This document shows positions 1 through 21,155 of a stretch of DNA of 35,183 bases, piece after piece. The stretch is taken from the IMG/VR virus record IMGVR_UViG_3300031772_000005. The stretch is one strand, 5' to 3'. The notes beneath the pieces were generated by a model that was given only the letters and a program-made list of their open reading frames with translations, was not told the DNA's origin and searched no databases. Within the stretch, counting starts at the first letter, position 1. Each line of letters begins with the position of its first letter. The DNA is from a virus. Its lineage: Duplodnaviria; Heunggongvirae; Uroviricota; Caudoviricetes. The position numbers and the translations under genes are program-made.

Positions 1-971
1 ATAAAAGGATTACCCTGCATCATAGGATTAAATCCTTGAGGTATCATTCTATTCATTCTTCTTGCTGCACGTCTTTCTTTACCATGACCCCATCCACCAA
101 ATTGTAATTCAGTATTTGTACCAATTTGAGGACTATCAAATATGTCATGTATACTAGTAGCATAAGCTGCAATATGGTGCATAGGATTTTCAGAATCAAT
201 ATTTTGATCAGGAAATATACCACCATCTTGTGCATAACCTTGCATCATTGGAGGTTGTTGTAAATGTTGCATGTACTGATTATACTGTTCTTCAGCTTGT
301 TGCTTAAGTGCAGCAGTATTAGCTTCATTTTTTACAGAACCTAAAAAGTTATTAACTCTTTCTTCTCTTCCACCTAATGGAATGTCAGTTGAATTTGTTT
401 TACCACCCTCTGCTTTTTTAGTAAGCTTCATGAAAGTATCAATATACTTTCTTTTACTTATAGGTCCGCCACGTCTAGCCATTTGAGGAACATCTTCTTC
501 ATCTTCAATAAATTGAGGATCTTCCTGATTAAAATCTACACCACCTTCTTCTGATTGAGCATACATCTGTTGAAGTTGTGCTTGTTGATCTTCGTAAGCT
601 ATTTGTTCAGCAGCTTGTCTATCAGTAGCTTCTTGTTCAGCATTTAATTCAGTAGCATCTTCATCATCTTCCATGGAAGTTGCTTGCTTAGCATCTGCTT
701 GCTCATTAATATAATCTAAAGCTACTTCTGATAACTGATTAACTTTTCTTGGATCTATGCTAGATTGCAATAATTGTTGTTGAGCTTGTTCTATACTACC
801 ATTAGGTTGTGATAAAGTTTGCATAATAAACATAACTATATCTTCATCTGTAGGAGCCGGAGCTTGTTGTTCTTGAGGTATACCACCTTCTTGAAAATAC
901 TGCTGAGTCTTATTAATATAAGATCCTTGTTCTCCACCAGCTTTATATATTCTTACACGTCTTTTTTCCAT
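1..971 (-). CDS. Gln/Glu-rich putative cargo (ejection) protein, 3' end outside the window
   Basis: Absent from the ORF track. ATG at 971; I read the frame codon by codon to the window edge with no stop (323 codons, MEKRRVRIYKAGGEQGSY...QGNPF). Multiple xxGG motifs. Confidence 0.85.
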   Translation of the reverse strand, partial: MEKRRVRIYKAGGEQGSYINKTQQYFQEGGIPQEQQAPAPTDEDIVMFIMQTLSQPNGSIEQAQQQLLQSSIDPRKVNQLSEVALDYINEQADAKQATSMEDDEDATELNAEQEATDRQAAEQIAYEDQQAQLQQMYAQSEEGGVDFNQEDPQFIEDEEDVPQMARRGGPISKRKYIDTFMKLTKKAEGGKTNSTDIPLGGREERVNNFLGSVKNEANTAALKQQAEEQYNQYMQHLQQPPMMQGYAQDGGIFPDQNIDSENPMHHIAAYATSIHDIFDSPQIGTNTELQFGGWGHGKERRAARRMNRMIPQGFNPMMQGNPF

Positions 972-1030
972 TGGTATTTGTATATAGTATAATATAATAA
1001 TTTTAAACTTAACATATAAACTTTTAATGT

Positions 1031-3628
1031 TTACATTTCTTCAACTGTATATCCTTGAGATATTAAATAGTTAATCATATCTTCATCAGCATCTATTTCA
1101 AAAGCGCCACCTTTTTGTTTTTCTTCAGGTTCAGATGTTGTTTCATCATAAACAAGTTTACCTGCATCATATAATGTAGGTATATAATAAGGTGTCGGAG
1201 AAGTTAAATAAGAATCTGGAGTAGCTGATTTAACTCCTTCTATAAAAGTATTTCCATAATTTCCTTTACTTCCTACAATAGCTGATGCTACTAATCCTGT
1301 ACCTAAAGCTGTACTTGCATATTTTTCAGCAAGGGCTTGGGGACCAGATCCCATAGTAGACATTTGAAATTCATTATTCATTAACTTTTCAGGATCTATA
1401 TTTACATACTTTCTACTAAAAGGTAGTCTTCTTTTTAAAGAAATACTTGGATCAGTTAAAGGTATTTCTTTTACAAGACCTTGATTATCAATAATATTAC
1501 GGCTTGCATTTCTTGTTGGATTATATCTAGGAGTTAACTTGCCTGCAAAATTTCTAAAAGTATCACCTGATCTAGGTATTACGTTATTAGATAACGATAA
1601 ATTTGTACCTGGAGCATTAGGATTAAATTCTGCTGCAAAAATATCAGATGACCTATTTTTACTATTCTTAATACTTAAAGGTTTTTGTTTAAATTTAAGT
1701 CTTTGAGGTAATACTTTATTAAACTGTGAATATAAAGGATCTTGAGGTAAACTAACATTAGAATTTTTTACACTATTTTCTAATACATCACCTAAAGGTA
1801 TATGGGCACCTTTTAATTTTTTACCCATAGGTATTAAATTAGCGGGACTTGTTGTAAGCATTGACTTTTGAAGTAATCCTGTATATCCTGAATCAATAAG
1901 ATTTCTTCCATATCTATCTAATTTTTGTGCAATAGACTTAACTTGAGGAAGTATAGTAGTTGCGGTATTTTTAGTAACTGTTGCTAATTTATTTATAGAT
2001 GGTGCAATTCCTTTAGCCATAGGCTTTAACATTTTACCTACACCAAAAGCATCTGATAAACTTAAAGCAGCTCCTAAGTAATCTCCTTGTTTAGCTTGTA
2101 CATTAGCATCTCCTACATAACCTAAAGGATTTAGCATATTGCTATACTTAGCAATATCTTGATCAGCTCCTGTTGCTTTCATATAATTAGCATAATCAGG
2201 ATTAGATTGATCATGTAATACTGTTCCTTGATCCATCATTGCTCCTTCACCTTTCATCCAGTTAGCTCCTGTAGTAATTGGATCTACCATAAAGGAAGAC
2301 ACATTATTAGCAATTGTATAACCCAGATTTTGTTGAGCTCTAGCTTTTTTATCTCTTTCTAAAAATAACTTATATTCATTAGCATCAATGTCTTTTTGTA
2401 TATTAGGGTTTTTTTGTATTTCTCTTAGCATTAATTCAGTCAACTCTTTAGGGTCTCCTTTTTGATTATAGTACTTGTCTCCTAAATATCTTGCAGCTTT
2501 GCCATTTTGAATTAGAAAGTCAGCTTGATTTTTTTGATCATTAAGGTCTCCTAATGGAGTTTTTTGTTGTGGTGCTTGACTCTTTGAACCCACAACTTTT
2601 GTACTTTCAGATACTTCTGGCTTTAATCGAGATTGATAATCAACTGGAACATTTGAATTATATTTAGAATTAGGTTTTACTGGAGCAGGTTTTTGAAATA
2701 AAATATTAGTAGCTCCAGCATTAGGATGATTAAACTGTCCAGCAAGTTGTGCTTTTGGTAATTCTTCTATTATGTACCCTCCATCTTTATACATTTTTAT
2801 CTCATCTGGAGTTAAGTCTAATTCTATAAATCCTCCGTCTTCTTCTTGAGGAATAGCTTCTTTAGTTTTATAATATTCTCCTCTACCATACATAGGATAT
2901 AATTCATCTTTACCAAAAATTCTATTACGTTGAGACATATTAAAATATTGCTTATTAAAATCTTTATCAATACTTACATATTTACCATTAATTTCATAAA
3001 GAGGTAGTCCGGAATATCCTTCAGTAGGTGTTGCTAATTTATAATCTTCAGGAGAATATGTACCAGCTTGTGGTATAAATATTCTGTCATTATTCATTCT
3101 AGGATAACCAGTTACATCAAGATTTTTAAGTTTTTTTAAATTGACTGGTTTACCTTTATCTGTCATATACGGATGTTCATTTAACCATTGCATAGTAGCT
3201 GCATGTTCACCACCTGATTGAAAGTATTTAGAGTTAGGATCAAATATTTTTTTCTTTTTAGATTTAACTTTTTTAAGTAATGGTGATTCACGGAATAATT
3301 TATTCTGTGCTTCTAAACTTCTAGAATACTTTTTAAGACTTCCTCCTTTTTTAGCTTGAGTAAGTTGAGGAAATTCATCAACATAATCAGCACCGGGAAA
3401 TTGATACTCTTGTCCAGGATACATCATCTGTGGTTGGCCTACATTAGGTTGTCCTAATACAGGATAGTTTACTCCCTTCATCGTAATATTACTAGCAGGT
3501 ATTCTAGTATTCTGACCAGGATATTTCCATTGACCTAATGGATCTCTGATAATATCTTTTGGTTTAGCCGGTGCTTTAGCTTTAGTTAAACCTTCAGTAG
3601 CTGTTTTAAGAACTTTTCTATTATGCAT
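1031..3628 (-). CDS. Putative cargo/ejection protein, 865 aa, multi-module
   Basis: Long ORF directly after the muzzle gene (TAATG overlap), the position of cargo genes in crAss-like phages; low-complexity linkers, xxGG motifs, hydrophobic segment ASTALGTGLVASAIVGS. Confidence 0.65.
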   Translation of the reverse strand: MHNRKVLKTATEGLTKAKAPAKPKDIIRDPLGQWKYPGQNTRIPASNITMKGVNYPVLGQPNVGQPQMMYPGQEYQFPGADYVDEFPQLTQAKKGGSLKKYSRSLEAQNKLFRESPLLKKVKSKKKKIFDPNSKYFQSGGEHAATMQWLNEHPYMTDKGKPVNLKKLKNLDVTGYPRMNNDRIFIPQAGTYSPEDYKLATPTEGYSGLPLYEINGKYVSIDKDFNKQYFNMSQRNRIFGKDELYPMYGRGEYYKTKEAIPQEEDGGFIELDLTPDEIKMYKDGGYIIEELPKAQLAGQFNHPNAGATNILFQKPAPVKPNSKYNSNVPVDYQSRLKPEVSESTKVVGSKSQAPQQKTPLGDLNDQKNQADFLIQNGKAARYLGDKYYNQKGDPKELTELMLREIQKNPNIQKDIDANEYKLFLERDKKARAQQNLGYTIANNVSSFMVDPITTGANWMKGEGAMMDQGTVLHDQSNPDYANYMKATGADQDIAKYSNMLNPLGYVGDANVQAKQGDYLGAALSLSDAFGVGKMLKPMAKGIAPSINKLATVTKNTATTILPQVKSIAQKLDRYGRNLIDSGYTGLLQKSMLTTSPANLIPMGKKLKGAHIPLGDVLENSVKNSNVSLPQDPLYSQFNKVLPQRLKFKQKPLSIKNSKNRSSDIFAAEFNPNAPGTNLSLSNNVIPRSGDTFRNFAGKLTPRYNPTRNASRNIIDNQGLVKEIPLTDPSISLKRRLPFSRKYVNIDPEKLMNNEFQMSTMGSGPQALAEKYASTALGTGLVASAIVGSKGNYGNTFIEGVKSATPDSYLTSPTPYYIPTLYDAGKLVYDETTSEPEEKQKGGAFEIDADEDMINYLISQGYTVEEM

Positions 3629-6600
3629 TACCTTTGAGATATTTGATTTTTACTATTACTTATTTTAAGAATCATATTTATGTCTCCTGAAACTTCTCTC
3701 TTCAAATGTAATACATTTAAATAATGTCTAAGTTTTTTTCTCTGTAAAGGATCCTTATTATAATCTAAGTTAACTGGATTAAGTGTTTTAATATAACCAT
3801 TAGATTGAGTAATCCAAAGATTTTCTTCAGTATGTGCACCAGGTAAAACAGTTGTACCTGGAATTACTGGAGTAGTATTAGGATAAGTTGATCCAATAGG
3901 AAACTCTCCTCTATCTCTAGTTATATCCCAGAATTGATTAAATCTATATTTGTTTTCTTCTTTAGAGAATAAGATATCATAAGAAGGATTAGTTAAATTT
4001 AATTTAGGATAAGCTAAACTTAAAGTAATATTATTCTTTGGAAATATATTTAAATTAAGATATCCGGATACTTGTTCTGAATTAAATACAACAGCTGCAT
4101 CAAAGTTAAAATCAAGTACTTGATACTGATCAACACAATTAAATTCAGATCTTTTATAACATTCTAACATATACTCCATAGACTTTACTGTAGTAATAGT
4201 CTGGCCTGTTACCATTGGTATTTCAACTTCAAAAGGATAATCTATACCATAGTAATTACAATAAGAATTACATGAATCATTATGTCTCCATACTCCATTT
4301 TCTTTAGTAGTCATGAAAGTATGCTTAGACGGCATAACTAAATCCGGATGCCAATCATGAAATGAAATCCAAAATTTAGATTTAGGATCATAACTAGCTG
4401 TCCATGAGGCATTTTCAAATAAAAGGGGGTCTCCTAAAGCAAAAGGAGTTTTACCTAACATAAATGCGTTAGCTTCATCATCATAAGTTACTCTACCGAC
4501 ATACTGTGGTTTTAATTTATAATCTTTTTTACAGAAGTATAATATACTATTCTGATTATCAAAAACTGATTGACATCCAATACCTGCTACTGGATTATCT
4601 TGATGTGGGTAATCTGGAAAATCTTGAGTAAGTTGATATGGCATAAATAAAGTATACCACCATTTTAATCCTTCAGAAGATATTTCTGTTATACCTTGTG
4701 TATATTGAAATATTTTACCTTGATTTTGTGACATATAAAACATACCTGCCGGAGTAGATATTACACTTCTTCTATTTTGAGAAGAACCATACTCATATGC
4801 ATCATCTGAAATTACTACGCTTTGAGGAGTTTGTGAAAATAAACCACCATCACCTATAGTAATTTTAGTACCAGCTTCAGTTTGTAATTGATCAATACCT
4901 TGAATAACTAAAGGACTTGCATTTTTAAATGTAATAAAGATACCAGTCTTAGCAAAGTTTTTAACCCCACTGATTTGATTTTTAAATTCTTTATAATTAT
5001 TAGCTAAGTATACATACCAACTATCTTTAAATGATTGTTGTTGTTGGGGTAAAGAATATATTATTCTATCTGGATAATATGTATAACATAACTTAGCTAC
5101 ATTAGGATCATAATACCTACTTTGTAAGGCTCCTTGTGAAAAATATTGTGTAAATATCTTAGATACACTTAATGAATAGTCATAAGCATAATAGTTACCT
5201 CTAGTAATAGTTTCTGGATTATTTCCAAATATAGCCGGTAAATCAGTAAAGTTATAAGGATTATAAACTTGTTCAGCTATTGTATTACCACTTTGTCTAA
5301 AATCTACAAGTACATCACTCTCTACAAAAAAGTCTCTTACTGAAGAATTGTTTAAATAAAAATATGATTTTTTAACTCTAAAAAATCCTGGATAATTACC
5401 ATGTGAATCATTATTATAGTCATAACCAGGATGAGATATTCCTAAACCTGATATCCAATCTGTATAGTCTAAATTATAAAAACCAGTAGGTAAAAAACCA
5501 GTTCCTGTAATAGTTCCATTTATAAAATTTGAAATATTAGATACACTAAAAATTTCTGTTAAATTATTTACATCATATCTTTGACTATTAGCCCAAAATC
5601 TTGGAGCTCCAATCATATTTCTTTGATAGTAATTATATTCAAAACCATCTGGTTGTCCATATAACCAGTCATAGAAAAAGAACATGCTGTTCTTTTCAGT
5701 ATATCTATTTATATAAGTATCTCCTCCAAAAAAGACTGGAGTACTTACTATTACTTGTTGACTTAATTGTCCAATACCTGGACAAAAAGTACTAGTAATA
5801 ATAGTTTCTATACCTGAATCAGATAAGTGTTGTTCACAAGGAGTTGCTATTAATTGCTTAATAGAATTTAACTGTCCATATTGATTATCTATTCTTACTT
5901 TAACTCCAGCATAATGACTAGCTATAGTTGTATTAAATTCATCAGTAGGATTATCTGTTGTATTAACACCCATACCTGCTATAGCTGCTGTACCTAATGT
6001 AACTAATGAATTATCTACAGAACCGTTAACAATATCAGATGGGCCATTAATAAATCTAGGTCCAAAATCCTGATTAAATTTATTAGTTGTTCTTAATACA
6101 ACTGTGTGAGAACGTTTAAGATTATTAATTTTATAGTTTAATCCACTAAATTCTGGAACTTGTTGTAATGTATCTTTTAAATAAAAACTATCTACAAGAT
6201 TAAATCTTACAGTACTAGTTGCTAAAGGTGCAAAGTATGTATCATAAAAACCATGTGCAATAGACTGTAATGCATAGTCATCATATGGAGCTAAAGCATA
6301 CATTAATCTTAATGCTATTTCAGCTCCTTCAGAAAAATAAAAAGCTGCTTGTTGTACATTTGCTACTATACTTAATGCTGTACCAAGATATTCAGTTTTA
6401 CCCATAGTTCTTGAATAATTCAATGTTTCATTTTGAATTACTCCAAGTCCTGCTGCTGTATTAGCAGCTGCTCTAAGTACAGCATTATATCCATCTAAAA
6501 TACTATATCCTGCAAATGCATCAGCAATATTAAGACCTGTACTAAAATATGTAGCTATTAAACCATTATACAGCCCTACTGCAGCTGACCATGCAGCTTG

Positions 6601-8880
6601 TCCAGCATATACAGTTGGATTTGTTTGTCCATATATTAAAAGATCTGCATAAGCTGCAGTACTTGGAGCTTGATTAAGAGTAAACTCACCACCTGTAGAT
6701 ATAATAGATTCAATAATACCAGCTACCAACATTGGAAACACTATTGCATCAGATAATAATTTAAATTGAGGATGTTGATCAGGTATTATAAATTGTTGAG
6801 TACTGGTTCCTTTTAAATTACCATATAATTTTAATTCACTATTAGATAAAAAAGGATGTCTAAATCCAGTATCCGGTGAATGAAAAGTTATTATATTAGA
6901 AGGAACTGACTGATTTATAACAGTTCCGTTTTCATCAGTCAATTTTATATAAGGGTCATTTTGTCCTGCTACATGTCCACCTATTAAACTACTAATAGGT
7001 GTGATAGTATTAAATGGATAATTAGGATATAATCCTGTTGGTAATCCAGTTGGACTATTAGTACCATTTTTTATATTATAAGTTCTAAGGTTATTAAGCA
7101 TACCCTTAGCAATAATAGTTTTATTACCTTCTCTTGATCCTCTTAATATTTCATATCCTAGAATACCGGGTATATCATTACCATCATTATCTTTAGGATA
7201 TATAATATTTTTAAAATCAACACCCATGATTCTAATTTTTTGACCACCATTAGTAAAATGGTTATCAACTTTATTATCTGGAAATTTATGATGTCTAATC
7301 GGTAAACCACATAAGTCATATGCGGGACTTGGTATACTTTGTCCTGTCCAACATTGAGATGTTGAATTCCATAGGTCCGGCCTATTATTAGGATAGATCT
7401 CAGTTGATTGCCAGTAACCCATTTTCCCTCTAGCTACAACTACTCCACCATCATCTAATGTTGATTGAGTTGTACTAGTTACAGTAGCTGTATTAATAGT
7501 TTGAAATAAAAGAGTATCTCCTGTTAAAGTATTAAGATCATTATAAGCTGTGTTTTCTATTTGTCCATTATAAGATACAGCTACTCTACCTGGTATATGA
7601 TAAGAAGAAGATTTATCTCCTGTATCATAAACCCATCTAATAAAGAAAGGGTATACTTCATCTCTTAAATAACTAGGTTTATGTCCTCCGTCAATATAAT
7701 AAGAAGCCGGATATTCTACAGATACCCATTCAGTTTGAATAAGATTAGCTAATGGTTGATAATTAAAATCAAATTTTGCTGTAGGACCCACTCTAAGTAA
7801 ATAGTTATTTACCTCAATCATCTGATCTGATTTTTCAAATACAGGTGTTTGAATAGGTAGTAGTCTTATAGGAACATTTATTAAATCTAATTTTATTTGA
7901 TCTAATTGTATATTAGTGGTTTGTGTAGAATATATTCCAATTTCTTTAGCTACAGTACCTTGATTAACAGTTTGTACTACTACTAATATAAACTCATCAA
8001 AATTTTCTGTATCAGCTTCTATTTCTATATTAAGAGATCCTTCTGAATCATTAACAGAATATATAGGTTGAATATTACTTCCTGAAAAGTAGTCAGTTAC
8101 TTTTTGACCATTAATAGAATAAGCTAAAGTAACTGAATAAGATCCATTTAATAATGTTCCCGCACCAACACCTGGACTAACTTTAATACAAGGAGTTTTC
8201 ATTAGTCTTGCTAAACGCAAAGCATCACAATCTAAATCAGTTGTATCTATACAATATTCACATGTAGTATCTGGTTTACATAATTGTATCCAAGCAACTC
8301 CTGGCCATTGCATTGTAAAAGTTCCATTGGTATATGTATTATTATTATTCCATACATAATCAGCTGATGGCCAAGTTTGAGGATCTCCTATATTAATATA
8401 TTTATCTGGATTTAAACCATCAGCAAAAAATACAGTCCATGAACAATTTTGAGTTTCTCTTGATGCTCCAGATATTAAAGAGTACTTACTAAAGTTTAAA
8501 CATATGTCTTGCACTATAGGTCTGTAATTACAACTGTCTTCTTCATATAAACCTATCTCAGATCCTATAGCTGGTCCTAATCCAGTAGATGCATAAGCTA
8601 CTGTAAATAAAACCCATTTATCACTATATAAATATATGGTCCCGATTATATATCTTTTAGATCCTACAGGGCCTAAAGTTTGACCTGCTATTGCACAATT
8701 TATATTTGATGACTCATTTGATAATGCACCTAAATCTCCTTCAAGAGTATTATTAGATGCATTACGTGCATGTGTCCACATACCTTCTGATACAAAAGAA
8801 GGATCAGAATCTTTATTAAGACCCTTTACAAAAGTATTAGTATTAGTATCTGTTGTACCTTGTATATTTTTTTTTGCCAT
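3628..8880 (-). CDS. Tail stabilisation / muzzle protein (P22 gp10-like), 1750 aa
   Basis: Size, beta-rich composition, N-terminal 'F.KGLNKD.DP......W..A.N' pattern typical of this family, and position after two ring proteins. Confidence 0.8.
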   Translation of the reverse strand: MAKKNIQGTTDTNTNTFVKGLNKDSDPSFVSEGMWTHARNASNNTLEGDLGALSNESSNINCAIAGQTLGPVGSKRYIIGTIYLYSDKWVLFTVAYASTGLGPAIGSEIGLYEEDSCNYRPIVQDICLNFSKYSLISGASRETQNCSWTVFFADGLNPDKYINIGDPQTWPSADYVWNNNNTYTNGTFTMQWPGVAWIQLCKPDTTCEYCIDTTDLDCDALRLARLMKTPCIKVSPGVGAGTLLNGSYSVTLAYSINGQKVTDYFSGSNIQPIYSVNDSEGSLNIEIEADTENFDEFILVVVQTVNQGTVAKEIGIYSTQTTNIQLDQIKLDLINVPIRLLPIQTPVFEKSDQMIEVNNYLLRVGPTAKFDFNYQPLANLIQTEWVSVEYPASYYIDGGHKPSYLRDEVYPFFIRWVYDTGDKSSSYHIPGRVAVSYNGQIENTAYNDLNTLTGDTLLFQTINTATVTSTTQSTLDDGGVVVARGKMGYWQSTEIYPNNRPDLWNSTSQCWTGQSIPSPAYDLCGLPIRHHKFPDNKVDNHFTNGGQKIRIMGVDFKNIIYPKDNDGNDIPGILGYEILRGSREGNKTIIAKGMLNNLRTYNIKNGTNSPTGLPTGLYPNYPFNTITPISSLIGGHVAGQNDPYIKLTDENGTVINQSVPSNIITFHSPDTGFRHPFLSNSELKLYGNLKGTSTQQFIIPDQHPQFKLLSDAIVFPMLVAGIIESIISTGGEFTLNQAPSTAAYADLLIYGQTNPTVYAGQAAWSAAVGLYNGLIATYFSTGLNIADAFAGYSILDGYNAVLRAAANTAAGLGVIQNETLNYSRTMGKTEYLGTALSIVANVQQAAFYFSEGAEIALRLMYALAPYDDYALQSIAHGFYDTYFAPLATSTVRFNLVDSFYLKDTLQQVPEFSGLNYKINNLKRSHTVVLRTTNKFNQDFGPRFINGPSDIVNGSVDNSLVTLGTAAIAGMGVNTTDNPTDEFNTTIASHYAGVKVRIDNQYGQLNSIKQLIATPCEQHLSDSGIETIITSTFCPGIGQLSQQVIVSTPVFFGGDTYINRYTEKNSMFFFYDWLYGQPDGFEYNYYQRNMIGAPRFWANSQRYDVNNLTEIFSVSNISNFINGTITGTGFLPTGFYNLDYTDWISGLGISHPGYDYNNDSHGNYPGFFRVKKSYFYLNNSSVRDFFVESDVLVDFRQSGNTIAEQVYNPYNFTDLPAIFGNNPETITRGNYYAYDYSLSVSKIFTQYFSQGALQSRYYDPNVAKLCYTYYPDRIIYSLPQQQQSFKDSWYVYLANNYKEFKNQISGVKNFAKTGIFITFKNASPLVIQGIDQLQTEAGTKITIGDGGLFSQTPQSVVISDDAYEYGSSQNRRSVISTPAGMFYMSQNQGKIFQYTQGITEISSEGLKWWYTLFMPYQLTQDFPDYPHQDNPVAGIGCQSVFDNQNSILYFCKKDYKLKPQYVGRVTYDDEANAFMLGKTPFALGDPLLFENASWTASYDPKSKFWISFHDWHPDLVMPSKHTFMTTKENGVWRHNDSCNSYCNYYGIDYPFEVEIPMVTGQTITTVKSMEYMLECYKRSEFNCVDQYQVLDFNFDAAVVFNSEQVSGYLNLNIFPKNNITLSLAYPKLNLTNPSYDILFSKEENKYRFNQFWDITRDRGEFPIGSTYPNTTPVIPGTTVLPGAHTEENLWITQSNGYIKTLNPVNLDYNKDPLQRKKLRHYLNVLHLKREVSGDINMILKISNSKNQISQR

Positions 8881-11169: not shown

Positions 11170-11247
11170 GCTATATAGTTAATATACTAAAAAAAATCAA
11201 GACTAGGAAATTCTAGACTAAGCAAATATACTAATTTACTTAAACAT

Positions 11248-11278: not shown

Positions 11279-11320
11279 CTTTATTTGTTTGCCACAGAAA
11301 CCAACAAACTGTAACTTCTT

Positions 11321-11983
11321 TTATCCAATAATTGTTATACGTACTGTAAATGATTCTGCAGTAGCAGTGTCTATATAAAAACTAATATTTCCTGTTATAA
11401 CATCTGATGAAACTAATAAAGTTGGTTCATTCATAAGACTTACCCATTTATTTGAAATAGTTTCTAAAAACATAATGTTGTATGTAAAATCTGCTGATTG
11501 AATTGTAGGTGTAGTATTACTACAACCTAAAGTTATTAAACCACATGCTGCAAGATCAATACCAAGAAGAGTCAAGGTTACATTTTCAAGTACAACATTA
11601 TCAAAACTTTGAACATATTTTCTTACACCTGTATTTGAAACTGTATATGTTGTTGTAATACCTACTACAGTTGGTACTACTTCAATACCAATTCCGGCTT
11701 CAACAATTACTATTGGGATATTAGCTATCTCATTACAAAAGTAGTCTACTATATTATTTAATGCTATGTTAATTGGAGTAGTAGGATTTACTACAACAGT
11801 AGAGTCACATATGATAGCTAGATTAGTATATACAATACATTGTGAATCAAATGTTTCTGAACACAATTGTGCTTCAGGACAGTCTACAGGAGTAGGACAT
11901 GGTAGTGGTGATGTTAAGTAACTATCAGTACATCCGCACTTAGTACTATTTCCACAATTATTATTACATTTTGAACAAGACAT
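11321..11983 (-). CDS. Cys-rich virion fibre/accessory protein, 220 aa
   Basis: N-terminal CSKC..C..KCGC and further Cys clusters; shares a Cys domain with the neighbouring 545-aa protein; beta-rich C-terminus. Confidence 0.6.
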   Translation of the reverse strand: MSCSKCNNNCGNSTKCGCTDSYLTSPLPCPTPVDCPEAQLCSETFDSQCIVYTNLAIICDSTVVVNPTTPINIALNNIVDYFCNEIANIPIVIVEAGIGIEVVPTVVGITTTYTVSNTGVRKYVQSFDNVVLENVTLTLLGIDLAACGLITLGCSNTTPTIQSADFTYNIMFLETISNKWVSLMNEPTLLVSSDVITGNISFYIDTATAESFTVRITIIG

Positions 11984-11993
11984 ATTTTATATT

Positions 11994-13631: not shown

Positions 13632-13660
13632 ATTTATGTATATTATTAATATAGTAAAAA

Positions 13661-15808: not shown

Positions 15809-15809
15809 T

Positions 15810-15989
15810 TTATTTAATTTGATTAGATGGTATTGGTGTAATTTGATTTTGTAATGGTTTAATAATATTTTGATTTTTAGTAATTTCATACTTACCTATA
15901 CAAGATGAGCATGCTGATTTACCATCTGATGTTACTCTTTTTTGACATCCGCAAGAAAGATTTTTTTTACAATTTGAACACTGAGCCAT
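15810..15989 (-). CDS. Small Cys-rich protein, 59 aa (MAQCSNCKKNLSCGCQKRVTSDGKSACSSCIGKYE...)
   Basis: Below the ORF-track cutoff. Fills the gap between two genes, has an A-rich leader (AAAAACCAATAAATATG), stop 1 nt before the next ATG, and six Cys as CxxC, CGC, CxxC. Confidence 0.75.
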   Translation of the reverse strand: MAQCSNCKKNLSCGCQKRVTSDGKSACSSCIGKYEITKNQNIIKPLQNQITPIPSNQIK

Positions 15990-16008
15990 ATTTATTGGTT
16001 TTTAATAG

Positions 16009-16551
16009 TTAACAGTTTTTACAATCTAATTTATTTAATAATTTTAAAGCATAGTTATATAGTGTCATTCCTTTATCCGGTTCTAGACAAAATTCTACTT
16101 TAGCTTTAGCTGCATCTAAATACATTCTTATTAATCTTAATTGTTCTAATTTCTTTTTGATTAAAGCTGGTGGATCACACGCAGCAATATCTACTCTACA
16201 TAATATATTATTATACTTAATAAGAGCTTGAGTAATTCTTAAATGATTATATTCTACAAATACTAAATCATTTGGTGATACACTGTATTTAATTATATAT
16301 ACACCATCTGGTATATTTACATATGATGTACCACAATTAGCAGTTTGTAATTGTAAATCACATGCAGTTAGTATTTTATTAAATCCCGGAATAACATCAA
16401 TTTGATTTGAATAATTAAAACCTGGTACAGTAATATTTAATGTAGCACAAGTTAAAGGTACAATATCTGAATATACACTAGTATCTATTATACTTAAAAT
16501 ACATGCATTCATTACTGTAGGTACTTCTAAACTTAATACATGATTTGCCAT
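16009..16551 (-). CDS. Probable tail hub / fibre-docking protein, 180 aa
   Basis: Beta-sandwich N-terminus ('IPDGVYIIKYSVSPN') plus helical C-terminus; position after the auxiliary capsid-like gene. Confidence 0.5.
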   Translation of the reverse strand: MANHVLSLEVPTVMNACILSIIDTSVYSDIVPLTCATLNITVPGFNYSNQIDVIPGFNKILTACDLQLQTANCGTSYVNIPDGVYIIKYSVSPNDLVFVEYNHLRITQALIKYNNILCRVDIAACDPPALIKKKLEQLRLIRMYLDAAKAKVEFCLEPDKGMTLYNYALKLLNKLDCKNC

Positions 16552-16563
16552 AGTATAAAATAT

Positions 16564-16600
16564 AAAAAAGGGAAAGGAGTTTGAAACCCTCTCCCTTTTT
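16564..16600 (-). terminator. Intrinsic terminator after the 533-aa gene
   Basis: AAAAAGGGAGAGGGTTTCAAACTCCTTTCCCTTTTTT: GC-rich hairpin with G-U pairs and a U tract. Confidence 0.8.
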
Positions 16601-16622
16601 GATTATTAATTATTTAAATATG

Positions 16623-18224
16623 TTATTTCTTTACTGATGGGAAAGGTGTTACTGGAGTACAATCAGTTCCACAAGTAAACTCTTGGAATGCGCATTCAGT
16701 TCCACAACTTTCTAACCAATCATTAACAGCAGTTTCAAGATTTGGAATAGTAGCATTTGTAATAACTTCTAATAAATATCTGTCATTATCAAAAGTACCT
16801 GAAGGATTATTAAATCTTGGAACTACATGTAGTAAGTAGTAACGTGTATATAATGCAGTACGGTCAATTGCAGTAACTAATTGATTACCTTGAGTAATTT
16901 CACGAATTCTAAAATCAGATGCAAGGAAGTTTTGACGGTAAGACTCAGATAAAATCAAGTCACGTAAAACTGATTCACCAAGACCCATTGCTTGATTACC
17001 TTCACATTCTGTTACTACACAAATTCCTTCAAACTCACATGGATCACCGTTAAAATCAACTTCAGATGCATAAAGTTTAACTGGTTGCTTTTCATAAAAA
17101 TCAGATATTTGGAAAGTACAATCTCCAAATTTAGTATCTACATAAGCACCATTCATAATCATTCCTGCACAAGTTCCATCTACATGACCTGGAGATACAT
17201 AATTATCCCAAGTATTTGCACCAACTGCTAGCAAGAAAGCTGCTGAAGTTCCTGGTGCATACCACAATACACCTGCTTCATCTTGTACTATAATTTCTAA
17301 GAAAGATTTAGTTATTGGAGAATTAAGTAAAGCATTAGCCCAAAGAATAAATACTTCAGTTGAATCAACAGCTGTTGGAGCAAGCGCACCTGTAGCACAA
17401 CATCCTGTGTATGCATCAGCAATTAAATAAGCATTGTGATTTAACAAACGTAAAGCAGGAGAACCTTTAATATCTACACGTAATGAATAAGTTTCACCAC
17501 ATAAGAACTCTTTGCAACAATTTGCAGTACCTGCTGCTACACTTACAGTATCAATTGTTACAGTTGCATCACTATTACCACCTACTAATGTAACTACATC
17601 TGCAGCAGTATAACCTTTTCCTGGATTCATTACATCTATAATTGTAGGTACTCCTGCAGCTACAGTTGCAAAATATGTTAAACCTGTTCCTGTACCACCT
17701 GTAGTAGTAAATAAAACTGGAGTAACAGAGTTAGCATAACCTGTTCCATCAATATTATCTGTGTAAGTTAATACAGCTTCACCTGCAGTATAAGATGTTG
17801 AACCAACATTGATAACATTAGTACTAGGTAAACATGGGTCAACTCTATAAAAATCAGAAACATATTTAGGGTTAATCATTTTAGACTTGTTAGTCTCTTG
17901 ATAACCTCCTGCAAAAGGACCAATTTTATCATTAGTATAAATTGCAGAACCAGCAAGATAAGCTGAACAGCAATTAGCTAAATCAGATAATAGATTAGTC
18001 TTAGGATCAAAGAATCCAAAATATCCATTATTGTATGCAGTACCTAAAGCAGGTAATTGATTAAGTGCATAACTAGGAATATTATCCCCTGTAGGTAAAA
18101 CAAAACCAAATGAAGTATCTACATTAGTTAAAATAGTACCATTAAGTAAAGTTACACTTTTATTTGTCAAGGTACTTCCTGTACCTAAAAACGTTTTTTG
18201 AAACGCATGATTAAAATAAGCCAT
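16623..18224 (-). CDS. Abundant structural protein, probably auxiliary capsid protein, 533 aa
   Basis: Own AT-rich leader and own terminator (suggests high expression); beta-rich; syntenic with the auxiliary capsid gene of crAss-like phages. Confidence 0.55.
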   Translation of the reverse strand: MAYFNHAFQKTFLGTGSTLTNKSVTLLNGTILTNVDTSFGFVLPTGDNIPSYALNQLPALGTAYNNGYFGFFDPKTNLLSDLANCCSAYLAGSAIYTNDKIGPFAGGYQETNKSKMINPKYVSDFYRVDPCLPSTNVINVGSTSYTAGEAVLTYTDNIDGTGYANSVTPVLFTTTGGTGTGLTYFATVAAGVPTIIDVMNPGKGYTAADVVTLVGGNSDATVTIDTVSVAAGTANCCKEFLCGETYSLRVDIKGSPALRLLNHNAYLIADAYTGCCATGALAPTAVDSTEVFILWANALLNSPITKSFLEIIVQDEAGVLWYAPGTSAAFLLAVGANTWDNYVSPGHVDGTCAGMIMNGAYVDTKFGDCTFQISDFYEKQPVKLYASEVDFNGDPCEFEGICVVTECEGNQAMGLGESVLRDLILSESYRQNFLASDFRIREITQGNQLVTAIDRTALYTRYYLLHVVPRFNNPSGTFDNDRYLLEVITNATIPNLETAVNDWLESCGTECAFQEFTCGTDCTPVTPFPSVKK

Positions 18225-18286
18225 TTTTTTTAATTTTAATTTATAAACATATAATATAATATAATTAAAATATTTGAATAATCAAA

Positions 18287-18724
18287 TTATTTTAAGAATA
18301 AAAGTTTGTACTTAGTAGAATTTAGAGAATCCTTAACTGTATCTAGAGCATTTACTATTTCTGAATAAGGCATCTTGGATTGTAAACTAGACACCATACT
18401 GTAAATTTCACGGATATATTTTATAGCATCATCTACTGAATTTAATATTGTAGGAGAAGCTTCAGTATAACTTAATAGTTTTTCACTAGCACCTTGATAT
18501 CCTTCAGCTAAGTCATCAGCATGTCCAGGTAAAGCATCATATAAATCATTAAGTGCTTTATGACCAGCATATGAACCTACACCAGTTATTTTAAGATGTA
18601 ATTTATGAAATGATGTACCAGCATTCATTAGTTCTGATACACATGCAGCAGTCATAGAATCTATAGATCCTGTTGATGGTGCTGAATAACTTGCACTTCT
18701 TTTTAGCATTCTTTGAGTTTCCAT
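18287..18724 (-). CDS. Dps/ferritin-like four-helix bundle protein, 145 aa
   Basis: 'FHKLHLKITGVGSYAGHKALNDLYDALPGHADDLAE' matches the Dps-type H...H...DxxAE ferroxidase spacing. Confidence 0.7.
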   Translation of the reverse strand: METQRMLKRSASYSAPSTGSIDSMTAACVSELMNAGTSFHKLHLKITGVGSYAGHKALNDLYDALPGHADDLAEGYQGASEKLLSYTEASPTILNSVDDAIKYIREIYSMVSSLQSKMPYSEIVNALDTVKDSLNSTKYKLLFLK

Positions 18725-18729
18725 TATTT

Positions 18730-19434
18730 TTAATTATTACGTTCTGCTCCCTCTGTACCTCTAGAGAATTGATTTCCTGATTCTATATCTCCAGCAATAA
18801 CACTAGCTGTTTCATCTATTAAGAGTTCTATAATATCATCTTTAAATTCACATTCAACATCTACAGTAGATGCTACACCGGTATAAGGATCTACACAGTT
18901 TAATATTTGAATCTTAACTGGTTGTCTGTAATAAATGAGATTAGCATTACCTATAGTAAATTTATCATTAGTATATAAGTTAACTTGATTATTAATCAAT
19001 GTAGCAAAAGTTTCACCCCACTCAAAATTTGGAGTCTTTGCAAGATCTCTTAATAAGTTATTCACGTTAGCTTCTTCAGCTAGATATACTATCATTCTTT
19101 TATTAGTATCACAACACTCTTCTGTATTAGCAAATATATCTACTCTTTTCCACTGTAAGTAATTAGCCGGTATAGGAGCTGAATATAATATTTCTTTTTT
19201 AGAAATACCTAACGGTTGAGTATTAAGTAGTACTTGTAAGTCATCTATTCTTCTAGTAGAAGCTTCATCACCTTCCTTAACTATATTAATACCGTGTAGT
19301 TGTCTTCTAGCCCATTCAACTTGAACTTTATTAAACCCTTCAACAATTTGCCAACATTCAATGTTGTCATAGTCTTGACTATCTAATTTATTTAGACGTT
19401 GTTTAATCTTTATGGCAAGAGTGCTGTTTAACAT
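18730..19434 (-). CDS. Head-tail ring/adaptor protein, 234 aa
   Basis: 'IKIKQRLNKLDSQDY', 'E.ST.RIDDLQVLL' and 'YYRQP.KI' patterns of crAss-like ring proteins; synteny. Confidence 0.6.
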   Translation of the reverse strand: MLNSTLAIKIKQRLNKLDSQDYDNIECWQIVEGFNKVQVEWARRQLHGINIVKEGDEASTRRIDDLQVLLNTQPLGISKKEILYSAPIPANYLQWKRVDIFANTEECCDTNKRMIVYLAEEANVNNLLRDLAKTPNFEWGETFATLINNQVNLYTNDKFTIGNANLIYYRQPVKIQILNCVDPYTGVASTVDVECEFKDDIIELLIDETASVIAGDIESGNQFSRGTEGAERNN

Positions 19435-19437
19435 TAT

Positions 19438-20160
19438 TTATCTTTTTTTAGCTTTAGTATTTCTTGATTTAGGTATAGCTTTACTTACCAAAGACTTACT
19501 TAATACTTTATCAAAAGGCGCATTAAAAGTTTTTGAAAAAGGACTTGTACTAGGGTTAGATTTATTATTATTTTTAATTTTATTTACTTTTTGAATAACA
19601 TTTATATTTTTTTTAATTTTCAGAGCTCCTTTCACAATAGCTCCTAAATCAGCTTTTGGTAATGCTTTAGTTTGACCACCTACTTTATGATTTTTTAAAG
19701 CCGTTCCTGTAGCTTTCATAGTTTGTCCTTTGGCTTTTTGAGCAGCTCCTTTAGCTTTCATAGCCTGCCCTTTAGCCTTAAGTGCTTTACCAGCATCAAT
19801 AGATTCTTTAGCATTAGCTGCATTAAGTTTACTAAACCCAACAGCTCCTAAAGTTGCTCCAATAGTAGCAGATGCTCCAGCTACTTTAACATTTTTATAG
19901 GCTGCTGCACTTTTTGCATTTTTTGCATTTACTGCATCATTTTTAATTTTATTAGCAGTATTAGTAGCATTATCAGCATCTTGTTTTTCTTTTGTTGCTT
20001 TAGTAGCAGTAGTTTTAATTCTATCAGCAGCAATCTTATCTTTAATAGCTGCTGCTTGTTTAGCATATGCTGCAGCATCTTCAGCATCATCAGCAGCTTT
20101 AGCAGCTTTAGCAGCTTTAGCTTTCTTAACACTTTTTACAATTCCTCCTATTAGGCCCAT
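19438..20160 (-). CDS. Highly basic K/A-rich protein, 240 aa (putative internal/DNA-condensing)
   Basis: 49 Lys by hand count, K+A about 40%; heptad repeats, Gly/Ala hydrophobic segment, xxGG motifs. Confidence 0.7.
   Translation of the reverse strand: MGLIGGIVKSVKKAKAAKAAKAADDAEDAAAYAKQAAAIKDKIAADRIKTTATKATKEKQDADNATNTANKIKNDAVNAKNAKSAAAYKNVKVAGASATIGATLGAVGFSKLNAANAKESIDAGKALKAKGQAMKAKGAAQKAKGQTMKATGTALKNHKVGGQTKALPKADLGAIVKGALKIKKNINVIQKVNKIKNNNKSNPSTSPFSKTFNAPFDKVLSKSLVSKAIPKSRNTKAKKR
19687..19791 (-). repeat. Five degenerate 21-bp (7-aa) coding repeats
   Basis: GKALKAK GQAMKAK GAAQKAK GQTMKAT GTALKNH. Confidence 0.8.
20092..20118 (+). repeat. Perfect 9-bp tandem repeat x3 (AGCAGCTTT), encoding KAAKAAKAA
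   Basis: Read directly from the sequence. Confidence 0.9.
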
Positions 20161-20164
20161 GATA

Positions 20165-20749
20165 CTATATTTTTTTACCTGAGTTTTTTACACTCTTTTT
20201 AATAGATTTAGTTATTTTTCTTTCTGCTTTTTTTTCAGAAAAACCACCTAATTGTTCTTTTTTAAGAGGAAATGCTTTACTCATTGCTCCAGTTGCAGCT
20301 TTAGTACCTTTAGATTTTGATTTACTTGATATAGCAGATCCAATTACTGCTGCACCTACTGGTACACCAATCATTGCAGCACCTACTTTTTTAGCAGTTT
20401 GACCTTCATGATATGCATCCCAGTCTTCTACTCTTTTTAAATTTGAAGTAGCTTTTGCATAATGAGCAGCTTTAGCATTTTTAACAGCTTTTACACCAGC
20501 TTTTGCAGCTTTAACAATTGCACCTAATTGTGCTTTAGGTACCCCACCTTTTTTCATAGTAGCAATACCTGCATTAGCTGTATTAGTAGTTGCCATACCA
20601 TATACACCTTTTTTAAGTATTTCTGATCCACCAACTTGTGCTTTAGCATAACCAGCTCCTTTAGTATTAATAGCACGGGAGGACGCTTGTCCTCCTTTAG
20701 CCATTTTCTTTGTGCCTCCACAAGAAGCACATCCTAGTTTCTTTGCCAT
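20165..20749 (-). CDS. Highly basic K/A/G-rich protein, 194 aa (start moved to MAKKLG)
   Basis: ATG at 20749 follows the upstream stop at 20754; five xxGG motifs; shares PKAxLGAIVK with the 240-aa protein. Confidence 0.7.
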   Translation of the reverse strand: MAKKLGCASCGGTKKMAKGGQASSRAINTKGAGYAKAQVGGSEILKKGVYGMATTNTANAGIATMKKGGVPKAQLGAIVKAAKAGVKAVKNAKAAHYAKATSNLKRVEDWDAYHEGQTAKKVGAAMIGVPVGAAVIGSAISSKSKSKGTKAATGAMSKAFPLKKEQLGGFSEKKAERKITKSIKKSVKNSGKKI

Positions 20750-20753
20750 GATA

Positions 20754-21155
20754 TTATTTCTTTTTTGGTGAAGCTTTTTTAGGAGCAGTTGATATACCAC
20801 CTACTCTTCCTTTTGGAGAAGCAGCTTTAACAGCAACTTTAGAAATTGCTTTAGTAATACCACCTACTCTACCAGTTGCTGTTTTACTAGCAGAAACTTT
20901 AGAGTTAGCATTTACCATACCACCTGTTTTGTACATTTTTTTAGTTGCACCACCTTTTGATTTTATACCTAGTTCATCATCTGATGGAGTTGGTGCACTA
21001 TAAGTTTCTACTTGTTTACGTTTTTTAAATGATTCAGGTGTAGCAAATTTTGTTACAACTTTAGATGAACCTTTAGGTCCAAATACATTTGTTTGTCTAG
21101 TTTTAGTAGTAACTTTATTTCCTTCCGGATCAATTACTGTAGTTTTTCTTGGCAT
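20754..21155 (-). CDS. Highly basic K/T/G-rich protein, 133 aa
   Basis: Fills the gap with a normal leader; KSKGG, MYKTGG and two GRVGGI(T/S) repeats. Confidence 0.7.
   Translation of the reverse strand: MPRKTTVIDPEGNKVTTKTRQTNVFGPKGSSKVVTKFATPESFKKRKQVETYSAPTPSDDELGIKSKGGATKKMYKTGGMVNANSKVSASKTATGRVGGITKAISKVAVKAASPKGRVGGISTAPKKASPKKK

What the first reader, a model, noticed from the sequence alone, without database searches (positions are those of the whole stretch)
93..20963. Recurrent [MYFAK]-[AKQ]-x-G-G tag in five unrelated putative internal virion proteins: candidate cargo addressing/processing signal
Seen: the motif punctuates the <1..971 ORF (YKAGG 933-947, FQEGG 882-896, MARRGG 465-482, KAEGG 402-416, YAQDGG 219-236, LQFGG 93-107), the 865-aa protein (AKKGG 3341-3355, FQSGG 3209-3223, EEDGG 2831-2845, MYKDGG 2777-2794, KQKGG near 1106-1120) and the three basic proteins (KSKGG, MYKTGG, MAKGG, KAQVGG, MKKGG, EQLGG, HKVGG). 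These proteins share no other overall similarity and range from very acidic to very basic. The motifs often delimit segments of different composition. Knowledge: adenovirus protease cleaves (M/I/L)xGG-X and ASFV polyproteins are cut at GG-X; from memory, the processed C-terminus of lambda tape-measure gpH carries FATGG/YATGG. Inference: the tag marks proteins for loading into the capsid, ordered ejection, or maturation cleavage into peptides. I know of no described function for it in crAss-like phages.
Basis: partly seen in the sequence, partly recalled or inferred. Interest (0 to 1): 0.8.

Follow-up and report, generated by a model that had tools for sequence, protein, structure and literature searches.

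The report
Gly-Gly joint motif in phage cargo
A short peptide (hydrophobic residue, Lys/Gln/Ala, any residue, Gly-Gly) really does recur, far beyond chance and conserved in hundreds of relatives, at the module boundaries of this crAss-like phage's ejected "cargo" proteins and in its small basic proteins; it most likely marks flexible joints between swappable modules, and it is still open whether it is also cut or used as a loading tag.

Summary
All quoted coordinates are right. In 226 unique small basic proteins of relatives, the stricter form occurs 187 times against 8.5 expected. In three near-complete relatives, 71-83% of hits fall in the roughly 10% of the proteome encoded after the muzzle gene and in the basic cluster. 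In the 865-aa family the two glycines are nearly invariant, and homology to 119 relatives most often stops just after them. Cassettes (lysozyme, SET, YkuD) sit between motif copies. AlphaFold2 puts its confidence minima exactly on the glycines, after short helices.

The giant RNA-polymerase cargo lacks the motif. Six protease families expected for Gly-Gly or prohead cleavage are absent from four near-complete relatives, and a seventh, a metallopeptidase, is in only one. The portal-MCP gene is helical and scaffold-like. In crAss001 a modelled cargo domain includes the motif, apparently uncut.

My best reading is an uncut helix-stop plus Gly-Gly hinge that ends each cargo module (0.40). Rivals are a cleavage site (0.28) and a docking tag (0.20).

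The same scan has noted this motif on other genomes. My literature searches found no description of it.

The parts
3..971 (-). N-terminal 323 aa of an acidic cargo protein (pI 4.6; full length 1104 aa in the nearest relative, L002). It is the second gene after the muzzle gene and has 8 GG sites.
   Evidence: It starts with the leader MEKRRVRIYKAGG that it shares with the cargo proteins of relatives.
933..950 (-). IYKAGG, a motif copy at the end of the N-terminal leader (residues 8-13)
   Evidence: The same leader is seen in L001, L002 and L004.
882..899 (-). YFQEGG motif copy (residues 25-30)
   Evidence: identical in L002
465..482 (-). MARRGG motif copy (residues 164-169)
   Evidence: L002 has VMRKGG at the matching place
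219..236 (-). YAQDGG motif copy (residues 246-251)
   Evidence: conserved in L002
1031..3628 (-). 865-aa modular cargo protein, the first gene after the muzzle gene. It is the positional analogue of crAss001 C1/gp45, but no sequence homology was detected.
3359..3556 (-). Constant N-terminal domain (residues about 25-90) of the 865-aa family. It is a beta-sandwich with pLDDT about 90.
   Evidence: It is present in all 310+59 homologues, including a 117-aa minimal form.
3341..3358 (-). QAKKGG, joint 1 (residues 91-96). It follows predicted helix 90-94.
   Evidence: G95 is kept in 110 of 111 homologues. pLDDT is below 50 at 95-98.
3209..3226 (-). YFQSGG, joint 2 (residues 135-140). It is the main module boundary.
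   Evidence: G139 is kept in 101/105 and G140 in 95/103 homologues. 45 of 119 BLASTP alignments end at 140-149. pLDDT is below 50 at 139-141.
2750..2848 (-). Internal copy of the cargo C-terminal element (GG, then a strand, a helix ending MYKDGG, then YIIEEL), followed by PKAQ. I read it as the fusion joint of two ancestral cargo genes.
   Evidence: 14 alignments end at 290-299. Helix 274-282 is predicted with pLDDT about 80.
1034..1123 (-). EKQKGG followed by the C-terminal element of the 865-aa protein
   Evidence: The same element ends most family members.
3628..8880 (-). 1750-aa muzzle-like virion protein. It is context only and marks the start of the cargo gene block; it has no motif hits.
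20754..21155 (-). 133-aa basic protein (pI 10.6) with IKSKGG and MYKTGG
20165..20749 (-). 194-aa basic protein (pI about 10.4; the real start is probably the ATG at 20749) with KMAKGG, KAQVGG, TMKKGG and KEQLGG
19438..20160 (-). 240-aa Ala/Lys-rich basic protein. It is only a weak member (NHKVGG), but its homologues in relatives carry clear copies.
23912..25195 (-). 427-aa acidic, all-helical, scaffold-like protein between the portal and MCP genes. It is context only: it sits where a prohead protease would be expected, and it is not one.

Best explanation
The motif is an uncut inter-module joint. Its consensus is K-[M/Y/F]-[K/Q/A]-x-G-G-[small residue or Tyr]-[V/I/T]. It acts as a helix stop (a hydrophobic residue plus Lys/Gln cap) followed by a Gly-Gly hinge, and it closes each cassette of a family of modular, ejected cargo proteins. 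It also recurs in the disordered small basic proteins encoded after the MCP.

The cargo proteins are built as a constant N-terminal beta domain, then a variable number of GG-terminated cassettes (lysozyme, L-Ala-D-Glu peptidase, YkuD, SET and unknown modules), then a constant C-terminal element of about 25 aa. The hinges keep the modules independent, so the chain can be stored partly unfolded and threaded through the portal and tail channel. Cassettes travel together with their joint when they are swapped.

Any addressing function more plausibly lies in the constant N-terminal domain and C-terminal element than in the GG peptide.

What is shown: recurrence, conservation, placement at module boundaries, restriction to these gene blocks, and the predicted flexibility.

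What is inferred: that the motif stays uncut, that it works as a hinge, and that this serves extrusion.
For: - Two-sided logo: K at -4, M/Y/F at -3, K/Q at -2, then GG, S/A/T at +1 and V/T at +2. This fits a hydrophobic-staple helix cap.
- AlphaFold2 ends helices 90-94 and 274-282 directly before GG, and puts its only short pLDDT<50 dips in the N-terminal 160 residues at 95-98 and 139-141. The scaffold-like protein shows the same pattern at its invariant KYVADGG.
- Homology breakpoints pile up right after GG: 45 of 119 at 140-149 and 14 at 290-299.
- P0034 equals P0028 plus a 189-aa insert bounded by FYQDGG and RYQDGG. A SET domain lies between NYKKGG and NFKKGG.
- Minimal family members consist of the N-domain, GG and the C-element only; one is 117 aa on an 84-kb contig.
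- In the C-terminal element the GG lies 6-8 residues from the stop codon, and its first Gly is often replaced (QGY, AGY, DGW). That is how a structural turn behaves, not a cleavage site.
- Pro after GG is only mildly depleted: 3.7% against 5.2% background, and 2.1% against 6.5%.
- No GG-specific or prohead protease was found.
- In crAss001 gp45 the resolved segments start at or just after motif copies. FSAYGG ends at residue 210 and the modelled helix spans 214-245. AFGG at 425-428 lies inside the modelled domain 425-552.
Against: - The near-invariance of the hydrophobic and Lys/Gln positions, and the motif's presence in proteins of opposite charge, is stronger than expected for a passive linker. 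It hints at a recognising partner or enzyme.
- Conservation that runs up to GG and then stops is also the classic look of a P-side protease site.
- Many cargo proteins start with a 12-20-aa leader that ends in GG.
- The small basic proteins have no folded modules to join.
- Only one AlphaFold2 model supports the helix-cap picture, and joint 2 has no predicted helix before it.
- I could not inspect the crAss001 coordinates. No proteomic data exist for this lineage.
Confidence: 0.4

Rival explanations
1. Maturation cleavage code. The cargo proteins, and fused forms of the small basic proteins, are polyproteins. A host protease or an unrecognised viral protease cuts them after Gly-Gly. This removes N-terminal leaders and C-terminal elements and releases the enzyme cassettes.
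For: - Each cassette ends with the motif, and conservation stops right after GG.
- 12-20-aa leaders end in GG.
- Small residues (S/A/T) dominate after GG in the basic cluster, and Pro is somewhat depleted.
- The same modules occur fused or split among relatives.
- The literature proposes cleavage of fused crAss cargo polyproteins (bioRxiv 10.1101/2020.03.07.982082).
- There are precedents with unknown or host proteases. Lambda gpH loses about 14 kDa from a Gly-rich region (PMC12617516). If pb2C is the 92 residues stated in PMC12617516, T5 pb2 is cut three residues before its only C-terminal GG.
- My peptide-mass re-analysis did not find crAss001 gp45 at its full-length gel position. That result is inconclusive.
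Against: - No C48, C5, C39, S78, S77 or ClpP protease in four relatives that are at least 96% complete; DUF2201 peptidase in only one of the four.
- The gene between portal and MCP is helical and scaffold-like.
- The GG in the C-terminal element lies 6-8 residues from the stop and is often replaced.
- The spacing differs from the adenain consensus by one residue.
- Pro after GG is tolerated.
- The crAss001 model 425-552 contains AFGG.
- crAss001 gp47, gp49 and gp50 run at full length, with peptides from both ends.
- The motif also occurs in a relative that infects a cyanobacterium, so a host-specific protease is less likely.
Confidence: 0.28
2. Multivalent loading or docking tag. The motif is a short linear motif that binds a pocket on a procapsid component (scaffold-like protein, portal or inner shell). 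Proteins carrying several copies are therefore co-assembled into the head, as with the capsid targeting sequence of T4 internal proteins.
For: - It meets the usual criteria for a short linear motif: it lies in disordered segments, is conserved on both sides, is multicopy, and occurs in unrelated proteins of opposite charge.
- It is enriched in the first 20 residues of the small basic proteins: 55 against 30 expected.
- It is confined to two virion-module gene blocks.
- In crAss001 the portal-bound domain of gp45 begins at a motif copy.
Against: - The giant RNA-polymerase cargo lacks it, and phi14:2 virion cargo lacks it.
- No receptor has been identified.
- The constant N-domain and C-element are better candidates for the address, because they are present in every family member, including the 117-aa minimal form.
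Confidence: 0.2
3. Compositional or nucleotide-level artefact, or an AT-hook-like DNA-binding element of Lys-rich proteins.
For: The basic proteins are 19% Lys and 10% Gly. K-K-G-G could in principle be encoded by a Shine-Dalgarno-like AAAGGAGG.
Against: - Shuffles that keep composition, global or local, never reach the observed counts.
- The codons are mostly GGT GGT, with GGA under-used at the first Gly.
- The motif is equally clear in the acidic protein (pI 4.6) and in acidic contexts such as YFQEGG and YAQDGG.
Confidence: 0.04

Closest known systems
Cargo protein C1 (gp45) of Bacteroides phage crAss001 (Bayfield et al. 2023, PMC10172136)
   Same: - It is the first gene after the muzzle gene and is of similar size (842 against 865 aa).
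- It is a proven virion cargo protein, partly in the tail barrel and partly bound to the portal.
- It carries the same kind of motif: FSAYGG, FAEGG, KAFGG, NAFGG, FAYGG and KAKGG.
- The resolved segments begin at or just after motif copies.
   Different: - No sequence similarity was detected (BLASTP E 0.64; no PDB hit by phmmer).
- The crAss001 flavour is aromatic-Ala-x-GG rather than Met/Tyr-Lys/Gln-x-GG.
- gp45 has a Gly-rich predicted transmembrane segment that the 865-aa protein lacks.
Capsid targeting sequence of phage T4 internal proteins (general knowledge; T4 reviews listed but not read)
   Same: A short peptide shared by otherwise unrelated proteins that are packed in the head and injected.
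   Different: - The T4 sequence is a single N-terminal copy of about 10 aa, removed by the prohead protease gp21 at L/I-x-E.
- Here the motif is multicopy, internal and terminal, centred on GG, and no prohead protease was found.
Gly-Gly-X processing sites of adenovirus (adenain, (M/I/L)-x-G-G|X) and African swine fever virus polyproteins
   Same: A hydrophobic residue upstream of GG. The substrates include small basic core proteins and polyproteins of a large dsDNA virus.
   Different: - The hydrophobic residue is one position further from GG (P5 rather than P4).
- No clan CE protease (Pfam C5, C48) was found in four near-complete relatives.
- Cleavage has not been shown.
Pre-toxin demarcation motifs of polymorphic toxins, such as VENN in CdiA and PxxxxDPxGL in Rhs (general knowledge)
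   Same: A constant N-terminal region, a short conserved peptide exactly at the point where homology ends, and interchangeable enzyme modules downstream.
   Different: - Here several joints occur per protein, and a constant C-terminal element follows the variable part.
- The modules are cell-wall enzymes and other cargo of a virion, not toxins with immunity genes.
C-terminal region of siphophage tape measure proteins: lambda gpH (FATGG, YATGG) and T5 pb2
   Same: - These proteins are stored in the tail lumen and ejected ahead of the DNA.
- Lambda gpH carries aromatic-Ala-x-GG-aromatic copies in an unresolved, Gly-rich segment.
- Both are processed near such sequences by an unknown or host protease.
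   Different: - There are only one or two copies, with no cassette architecture.
- The lambda cleavage site is unknown.
- The T5 site, as inferred from a 92-residue pb2C, is three residues upstream of GG.
- The kinship rests only on the motif and on a 10-residue MMYPGxxYQ match.

Membership tests
Substrates of a clan CE (adenain/Ulp1-like) Gly-Gly protease | Consensus (M/I/L)-x-G-G|X, that is, the hydrophobic residue at P4 | tested here: not met
   The logo puts M/Y/F three residues before the first Gly (P5) and K/Q at P4.
Substrates of a clan CE (adenain/Ulp1-like) Gly-Gly protease | A cognate cysteine protease encoded by the virus | tested here: inconclusive
   Pfam C48 and C5 give no match at E<=1 in G001-G005, four of which are at least 96% complete. 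The window's own genome is not held, and a divergent enzyme could be missed.
Substrates of a clan CE (adenain/Ulp1-like) Gly-Gly protease | Mature termini at GG in virions | not testable with these tools
   No proteomics exist for this lineage. The crAss001 MALDI re-analysis gave no verdict for gp45.
T4-type capsid targeting sequence | A single N-terminal peptide removed by a prohead protease | tested here: not met
   The motif is multicopy and mostly internal. No S77, S78 or ClpP protease was found. The gene between portal and MCP is helical.
crAss001 C1/gp45 cargo protein family | Detectable sequence homology to gp45 | tested here: not met
   BLASTP best E 0.64. phmmer against PDB chains found none. 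No Pfam hit.
crAss001 C1/gp45 cargo protein family | Gene position directly after the muzzle gene, before the RNA-polymerase block | tested here: met
   The RNA polymerase lying downstream in the same genome comes from scan note e1-1874977, which I did not re-test.
Short linear motif (general criteria) | Lies in disordered or flexible segments | tested here: met
   pLDDT is below 50 exactly at 95-98 and 139-141. The basic proteins are low-complexity and rich in K, A, G, S and T.
Short linear motif (general criteria) | Conserved at the same positions in orthologues and recurrent in unrelated proteins | tested here: met
Short linear motif (general criteria) | A defined binding partner | not tested
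   No partner is known. The single co-folding job is reported under Tried and rejected.
Polymorphic modular proteins with a demarcation motif | A constant region, then a conserved junction peptide, then interchangeable modules | tested here: met
   Breakpoints fall at 140-149 in 45 of 119 alignments. Downstream modules include lysozyme, YkuD, SET and L-Ala-D-Glu peptidase. An insert is bounded by two motif copies.

The most novel reading that the evidence does not exclude
The motif is the recognition code of a so far unidentified Gly-Gly-directed maturation step. That step would process ejected polyprotein cargo and small basic core proteins in crAss-like and related aquatic phages. It could be the same chemistry that cuts the tape measure proteins of lambda and T5, whose protease has been unknown for fifty years.
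Probability: 0.2. Interest if true: 0.85.

Novelty: new variant of a known kind. Interest (0 to 1): 0.58.

Why it matters
Crassvirales and their environmental relatives are among the most abundant phages known. This lineage alone has more than 6000 protein clusters for one structural gene. How they load and eject megadaltons of protein cargo is an open question raised by the crAss001 structure.

A simple sequence rule that finds the joints of cargo proteins has practical uses:
- It gives a handle for annotating cargo genes that have no detectable homology.
- It allows enzyme cassettes such as lysozymes, peptidases and methyltransferases to be delimited for expression.
- It allows reporter fusions to be designed to test loading and ejection.

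If the joints turn out to be cut, this would define a new phage maturation code. It would also give a concrete candidate sequence for the unmapped cleavage of lambda gpH.

Tried and rejected
- **Co-folding.** I co-folded the scaffold-like 427-aa protein (alignment A3) with residues 1-145 of the 865-aa protein (alignment A2). The result was no verdict (score 0.00; controls not run). I do not use it either way.
- **Family and structure searches on the motif proteins.** Pfam and PHROGs found nothing for the two large proteins or the three basic proteins. PDB sequence searches with the 865-aa protein and with a profile of the conserved EAEGGE...RHSxGG domain found nothing.
- **Fold search of the N-terminal domain.** The best Z was 5.2, to cupin-like beta-sandwiches, which is not informative.
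- **Hidden zincin protease.** I looked in the giant RNA-polymerase protein of G002, which has HEAWH at residue 827. Pfam gave nothing relevant.
- **Peptide-mass fingerprinting of the published crAss001 gel bands.** Bands 3-9 assign cleanly to gp47+gp50, gp49+gp44, gp20, gp26/gp22, gp22/gp25, gp25 and gp23. gp45 was not found, and bands 11-13 are not held, so there is no verdict on gp45 processing.
- **Shine-Dalgarno-like nucleotide signal.** Rejected on codon usage.
- **Near-identical DNA in the cultured-phage collection.** None found. The window's own assembly is not held.
- **Homology of the conserved domain of the third cargo gene to the portal-binding domain of crAss001 gp45.** There is only a suggestive 22-residue resemblance (E 8.5).
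- **Literature searches for the motif.** No description was found.

Full report
**What the window is.** All genes lie on the minus strand. They form the structural module of a distant crAss-like phage:
- large terminase (28011-30218)
- portal (25261-28005)
- a 427-aa protein
- MCP (22273-23889)
- a 337-aa protein
- three Ala/Lys-rich basic proteins
- ring-like and appendage proteins
- a 1750-aa muzzle-like protein (3628-8880)
- an 865-aa protein, followed by the start of an acidic protein that runs off the window

There is no near-identical cultured phage. The closest cultured MCPs are those of Leptolyngbya phage Lbo-JY46 (29% identity) and Cellulophaga phages. The lineage is very abundant in metagenomes: more than 599 matching stretches for one gene in IMG/VR and more than 6300 protein clusters for another.

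None of 2000 shuffles reaches 12, and local 40-residue shuffles give the same answer. It occurs 0 times in the other 26 ORFs, portal included.
- That test uses a pattern fitted to the same data, so I applied the unchanged pattern to relatives.
A stricter form, [MYFW][KQRA].GG, occurs 187 times against 8.5 +/- 3.1.
- Neighbouring shell and tail proteins have 0.00-0.07 hits per 100 aa, against about 1.0 in the basic cluster.
- The logo is two-sided: K, M/Y/F, K/Q, K, G, G, S/A/T, V/T, K.
- The glycine codons vary synonymously, mostly GGT GGT, and GGA is avoided at the first Gly. The signal is therefore in the protein, not a Shine-Dalgarno-like sequence.

**Where the motif is in whole genomes.** I scanned all ORFs of three relatives that are at least 99% complete. 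Of all hits, 15 of 21, 27 of 33 and 19 of 23 fall in three to five genes that make up about 10% of the proteome. These are the genes directly after the muzzle gene and, in one of the three genomes (G002), the basic cluster after the MCP. Binomial P is 1e-10 to 3e-23. The 4301-aa RNA-polymerase protein of one relative has only 2 hits. So the motif marks a subset of presumed internal proteins, not all cargo.

The same holds among cultured phages:
- crAss001 gp45 has six to eight copies of an aromatic-Ala-x-GG flavour, while gp46, gp47, gp49 and gp50 are not enriched.
- phi14:2 cargo proteins, proven in virions by MS/MS, are almost free of the motif.
- Lbo-JY46 has four strict copies, all in two cargo-like proteins.

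**The motif sits at module boundaries.** The 865-aa protein has 310 homologues of similar length and 59 shorter ones.
- In BLASTP alignments to 119 of them, G95, G139 and G140 are kept in 110/111, 101/105 and 95/103.
- Homology ends at residues 140-149 in 45 cases, that is, right after YFQSGG. It ends at 290-299 in 14 cases, after an internal copy of the C-terminal element.
- What follows varies: phage lysozyme, YkuD, SET, a chitin-binding domain, L-Ala-D-Glu peptidase, or unknown modules.
- One protein equals another plus a 189-aa insert bounded by FYQDGG and RYQDGG. A SET domain lies between NYKKGG and NFKKGG.
- Minimal members on long contigs consist only of the constant N-terminal domain, a GG joint, and a conserved C-terminal element of about 25 aa. 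That element is an acidic strand, a helix ending in hydrophobic-x-x-x-G-G/Y, and a final strand. The shortest such member is 117 aa.
- Cargo proteins of relatives also share an N-terminal leader: M-K-I/V-R-I-T-x-K, often followed by LPKAQ and GG. The window's acidic protein starts this way.
- The 865-aa protein carries an internal C-terminal element followed by PKAQ at residues 262-296. I read this as a fusion of two ancestral cargo genes.

**Structure.** AlphaFold2 with a 79-sequence alignment gives a confident beta-sandwich for residues 25-90 (pLDDT about 90).
- It places its only short sub-50 confidence dips of the N-terminal 160 residues at 95-98 and 139-141, the two joints.
- Helices 90-94 and 274-282 end immediately before a GG.
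- The N-terminal fold has no informative match (best Z 5.2).

**Searching for a protease.** Pfam models for Ulp1-like (C48), adenain (C5), C39, HK97 (S78), T4 (S77) and ClpP proteases find nothing at E<=1 in five related records, four of them at least 96% complete.
- A DUF2201 metallopeptidase, which an earlier scan note reports in this genome, is in only one of the four.
- The 427-aa gene between the portal and MCP genes is acidic, extremely conserved and predicted all-helical at low confidence. That is scaffold-like and not a protease fold.
- A candidate HExxH in a giant protein of one relative has no Pfam support.

**Experimental data from other phages.** In crAss001 the paper models gp45 residues 214-245 in the tail barrel and 425-552 on the portal.
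- In the sequence, FSAYGG ends at residue 210 and AFGG occupies 425-428. Ordered segments therefore begin at joints, and one joint is inside a modelled chain.
- I re-analysed the published MALDI peak lists. gp47, gp49 and gp50 run at full length with peptides from both ends. gp45 could not be located in the bands that are held.
- Lambda gpH does contain FATGG and YATGG. A 2025 structural paper states that about 14 kDa is removed from a Gly-rich region, that the site and the enzyme are unknown, and that residues about 690-817 are unresolved.
- T5 pb2 has a single C-terminal GG (AEGGMMYPG). The stated 92-residue fragment would begin three residues before it.

**Reading.** The data show a conserved peptide that terminates each module of polymorphic ejected proteins and that also recurs in disordered basic proteins.
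- I favour an uncut helix-stop plus Gly-Gly hinge (0.40). The reasons are the helix ends and confidence minima, the C-terminal copies only 6-8 residues from the stop with a replaceable first Gly, tolerance of Pro after GG, the missing protease, and the crAss001 model.
- Cleavage after GG (0.28) explains the one-sided breakpoints and the leaders at least as well. It has precedents with unknown proteases, and it cannot be excluded without mass spectrometry.
- A docking tag (0.20) fits the general criteria for short linear motifs. It is weakened because the RNA-polymerase cargo lacks the motif, and because the constant N-domain and C-element are better candidates for the address.
- Chance, composition or a nucleotide signal are essentially excluded.

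**Novelty.** My literature searches found no description of this motif. Earlier notes of this same scan report it on other genomes, with similar conclusions. I re-tested their main claims on this DNA and did not rely on them.

Noticed in passing
window 23912-25195 (-): The 427-aa acidic protein between the portal and MCP genes has more than 6300 homologous protein clusters, with the best 120 listed at 70% identity or more. It is predicted all-helical at low confidence, which looks scaffold-like. It has an invariant KYVADGG at residues 184-190 where a helix ends, which resembles the motif.
   Followed up: partly
window 20165-20800 (-): The 211-aa GTG ORF overlaps the upstream gene by 47 nt. The real start is probably the ATG at 20749 (MAKKLGCASCGG...), giving 194 aa.
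   Followed up: partly
L002:11030-11419; also L001, L003, L004, L011, L013, L014, L018, L022 (alignment A1): The third cargo gene of relatives lies beyond the window's left edge. It has a strongly conserved domain of about 130 aa (ANxEAEGGE ... RHSxGG[VT]P ... F[IV][FY]SD) with no Pfam, PHROG or PDB sequence match. It faintly resembles crAss001 gp45 residues 460-480, inside the portal-bound domain, and phi14:2 g070 residues 83-92.
   Followed up: partly
window 2750-2848 and 1034-1123 (-); relatives L001-L022: Cargo proteins share a constant C-terminal element of about 25 aa (acidic strand, helix, G-G/Y, strand, stop) and an N-terminal leader (M-K-I/V-R-I-T-x-K ... LPKAQ). LPKAQ-x-G also recurs in the small basic proteins, for example at 20165-20749 and 19438-20160.
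   Followed up: partly
P0028, P0034, P0072, P0096, P0102, P0103; L015:8133-11249: Homologues of the 865-aa protein carry interchangeable enzyme cassettes: GH24-type lysozyme, YkuD, SET methyltransferase, a chitin-binding domain and L-Ala-D-Glu peptidase. This is a polymorphic ejected-effector family.
   Followed up: partly
window 3400-3429 (-), residues 68-77 of the 865-aa protein; T5 pb2 residues 1132-1141 (L128): There is a ten-residue match, MMYPGxxYQ, between the invariant core of the cargo N-domain and the start of the T5 tape-measure C-terminal fragment (pairwise E 0.005). It could be chance.
   Followed up: partly
crAss001, L103 and L124 (published MALDI data): Peptide-mass re-analysis assigns gel bands 3-9. 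[quoted passage not shown]
   Followed up: yes
L035:4368-4514, L084:4393-4539, L071:4382-4528 and others: The basic clusters of relatives hold a conserved 48-aa Cys-containing protein (KKWIQKAVNP.HKG.CTP ...) and a roughly 90-aa module ending in WNC or WKC. The window's own cluster lacks both. Gene number and fusion state in this slot vary widely between close relatives.
   Followed up: no
L071:4594-5007: An HNH-endonuclease-like 137-aa ORF is inserted at the end of the basic cluster in one relative.
   Followed up: no
phage record PP438436.1 (L129): The closest cultured relative by MCP (29% identity) infects a cyanobacterium (Leptolyngbya), not a member of the Bacteroidota. The host of the window's phage should therefore not be assumed.
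   Followed up: no
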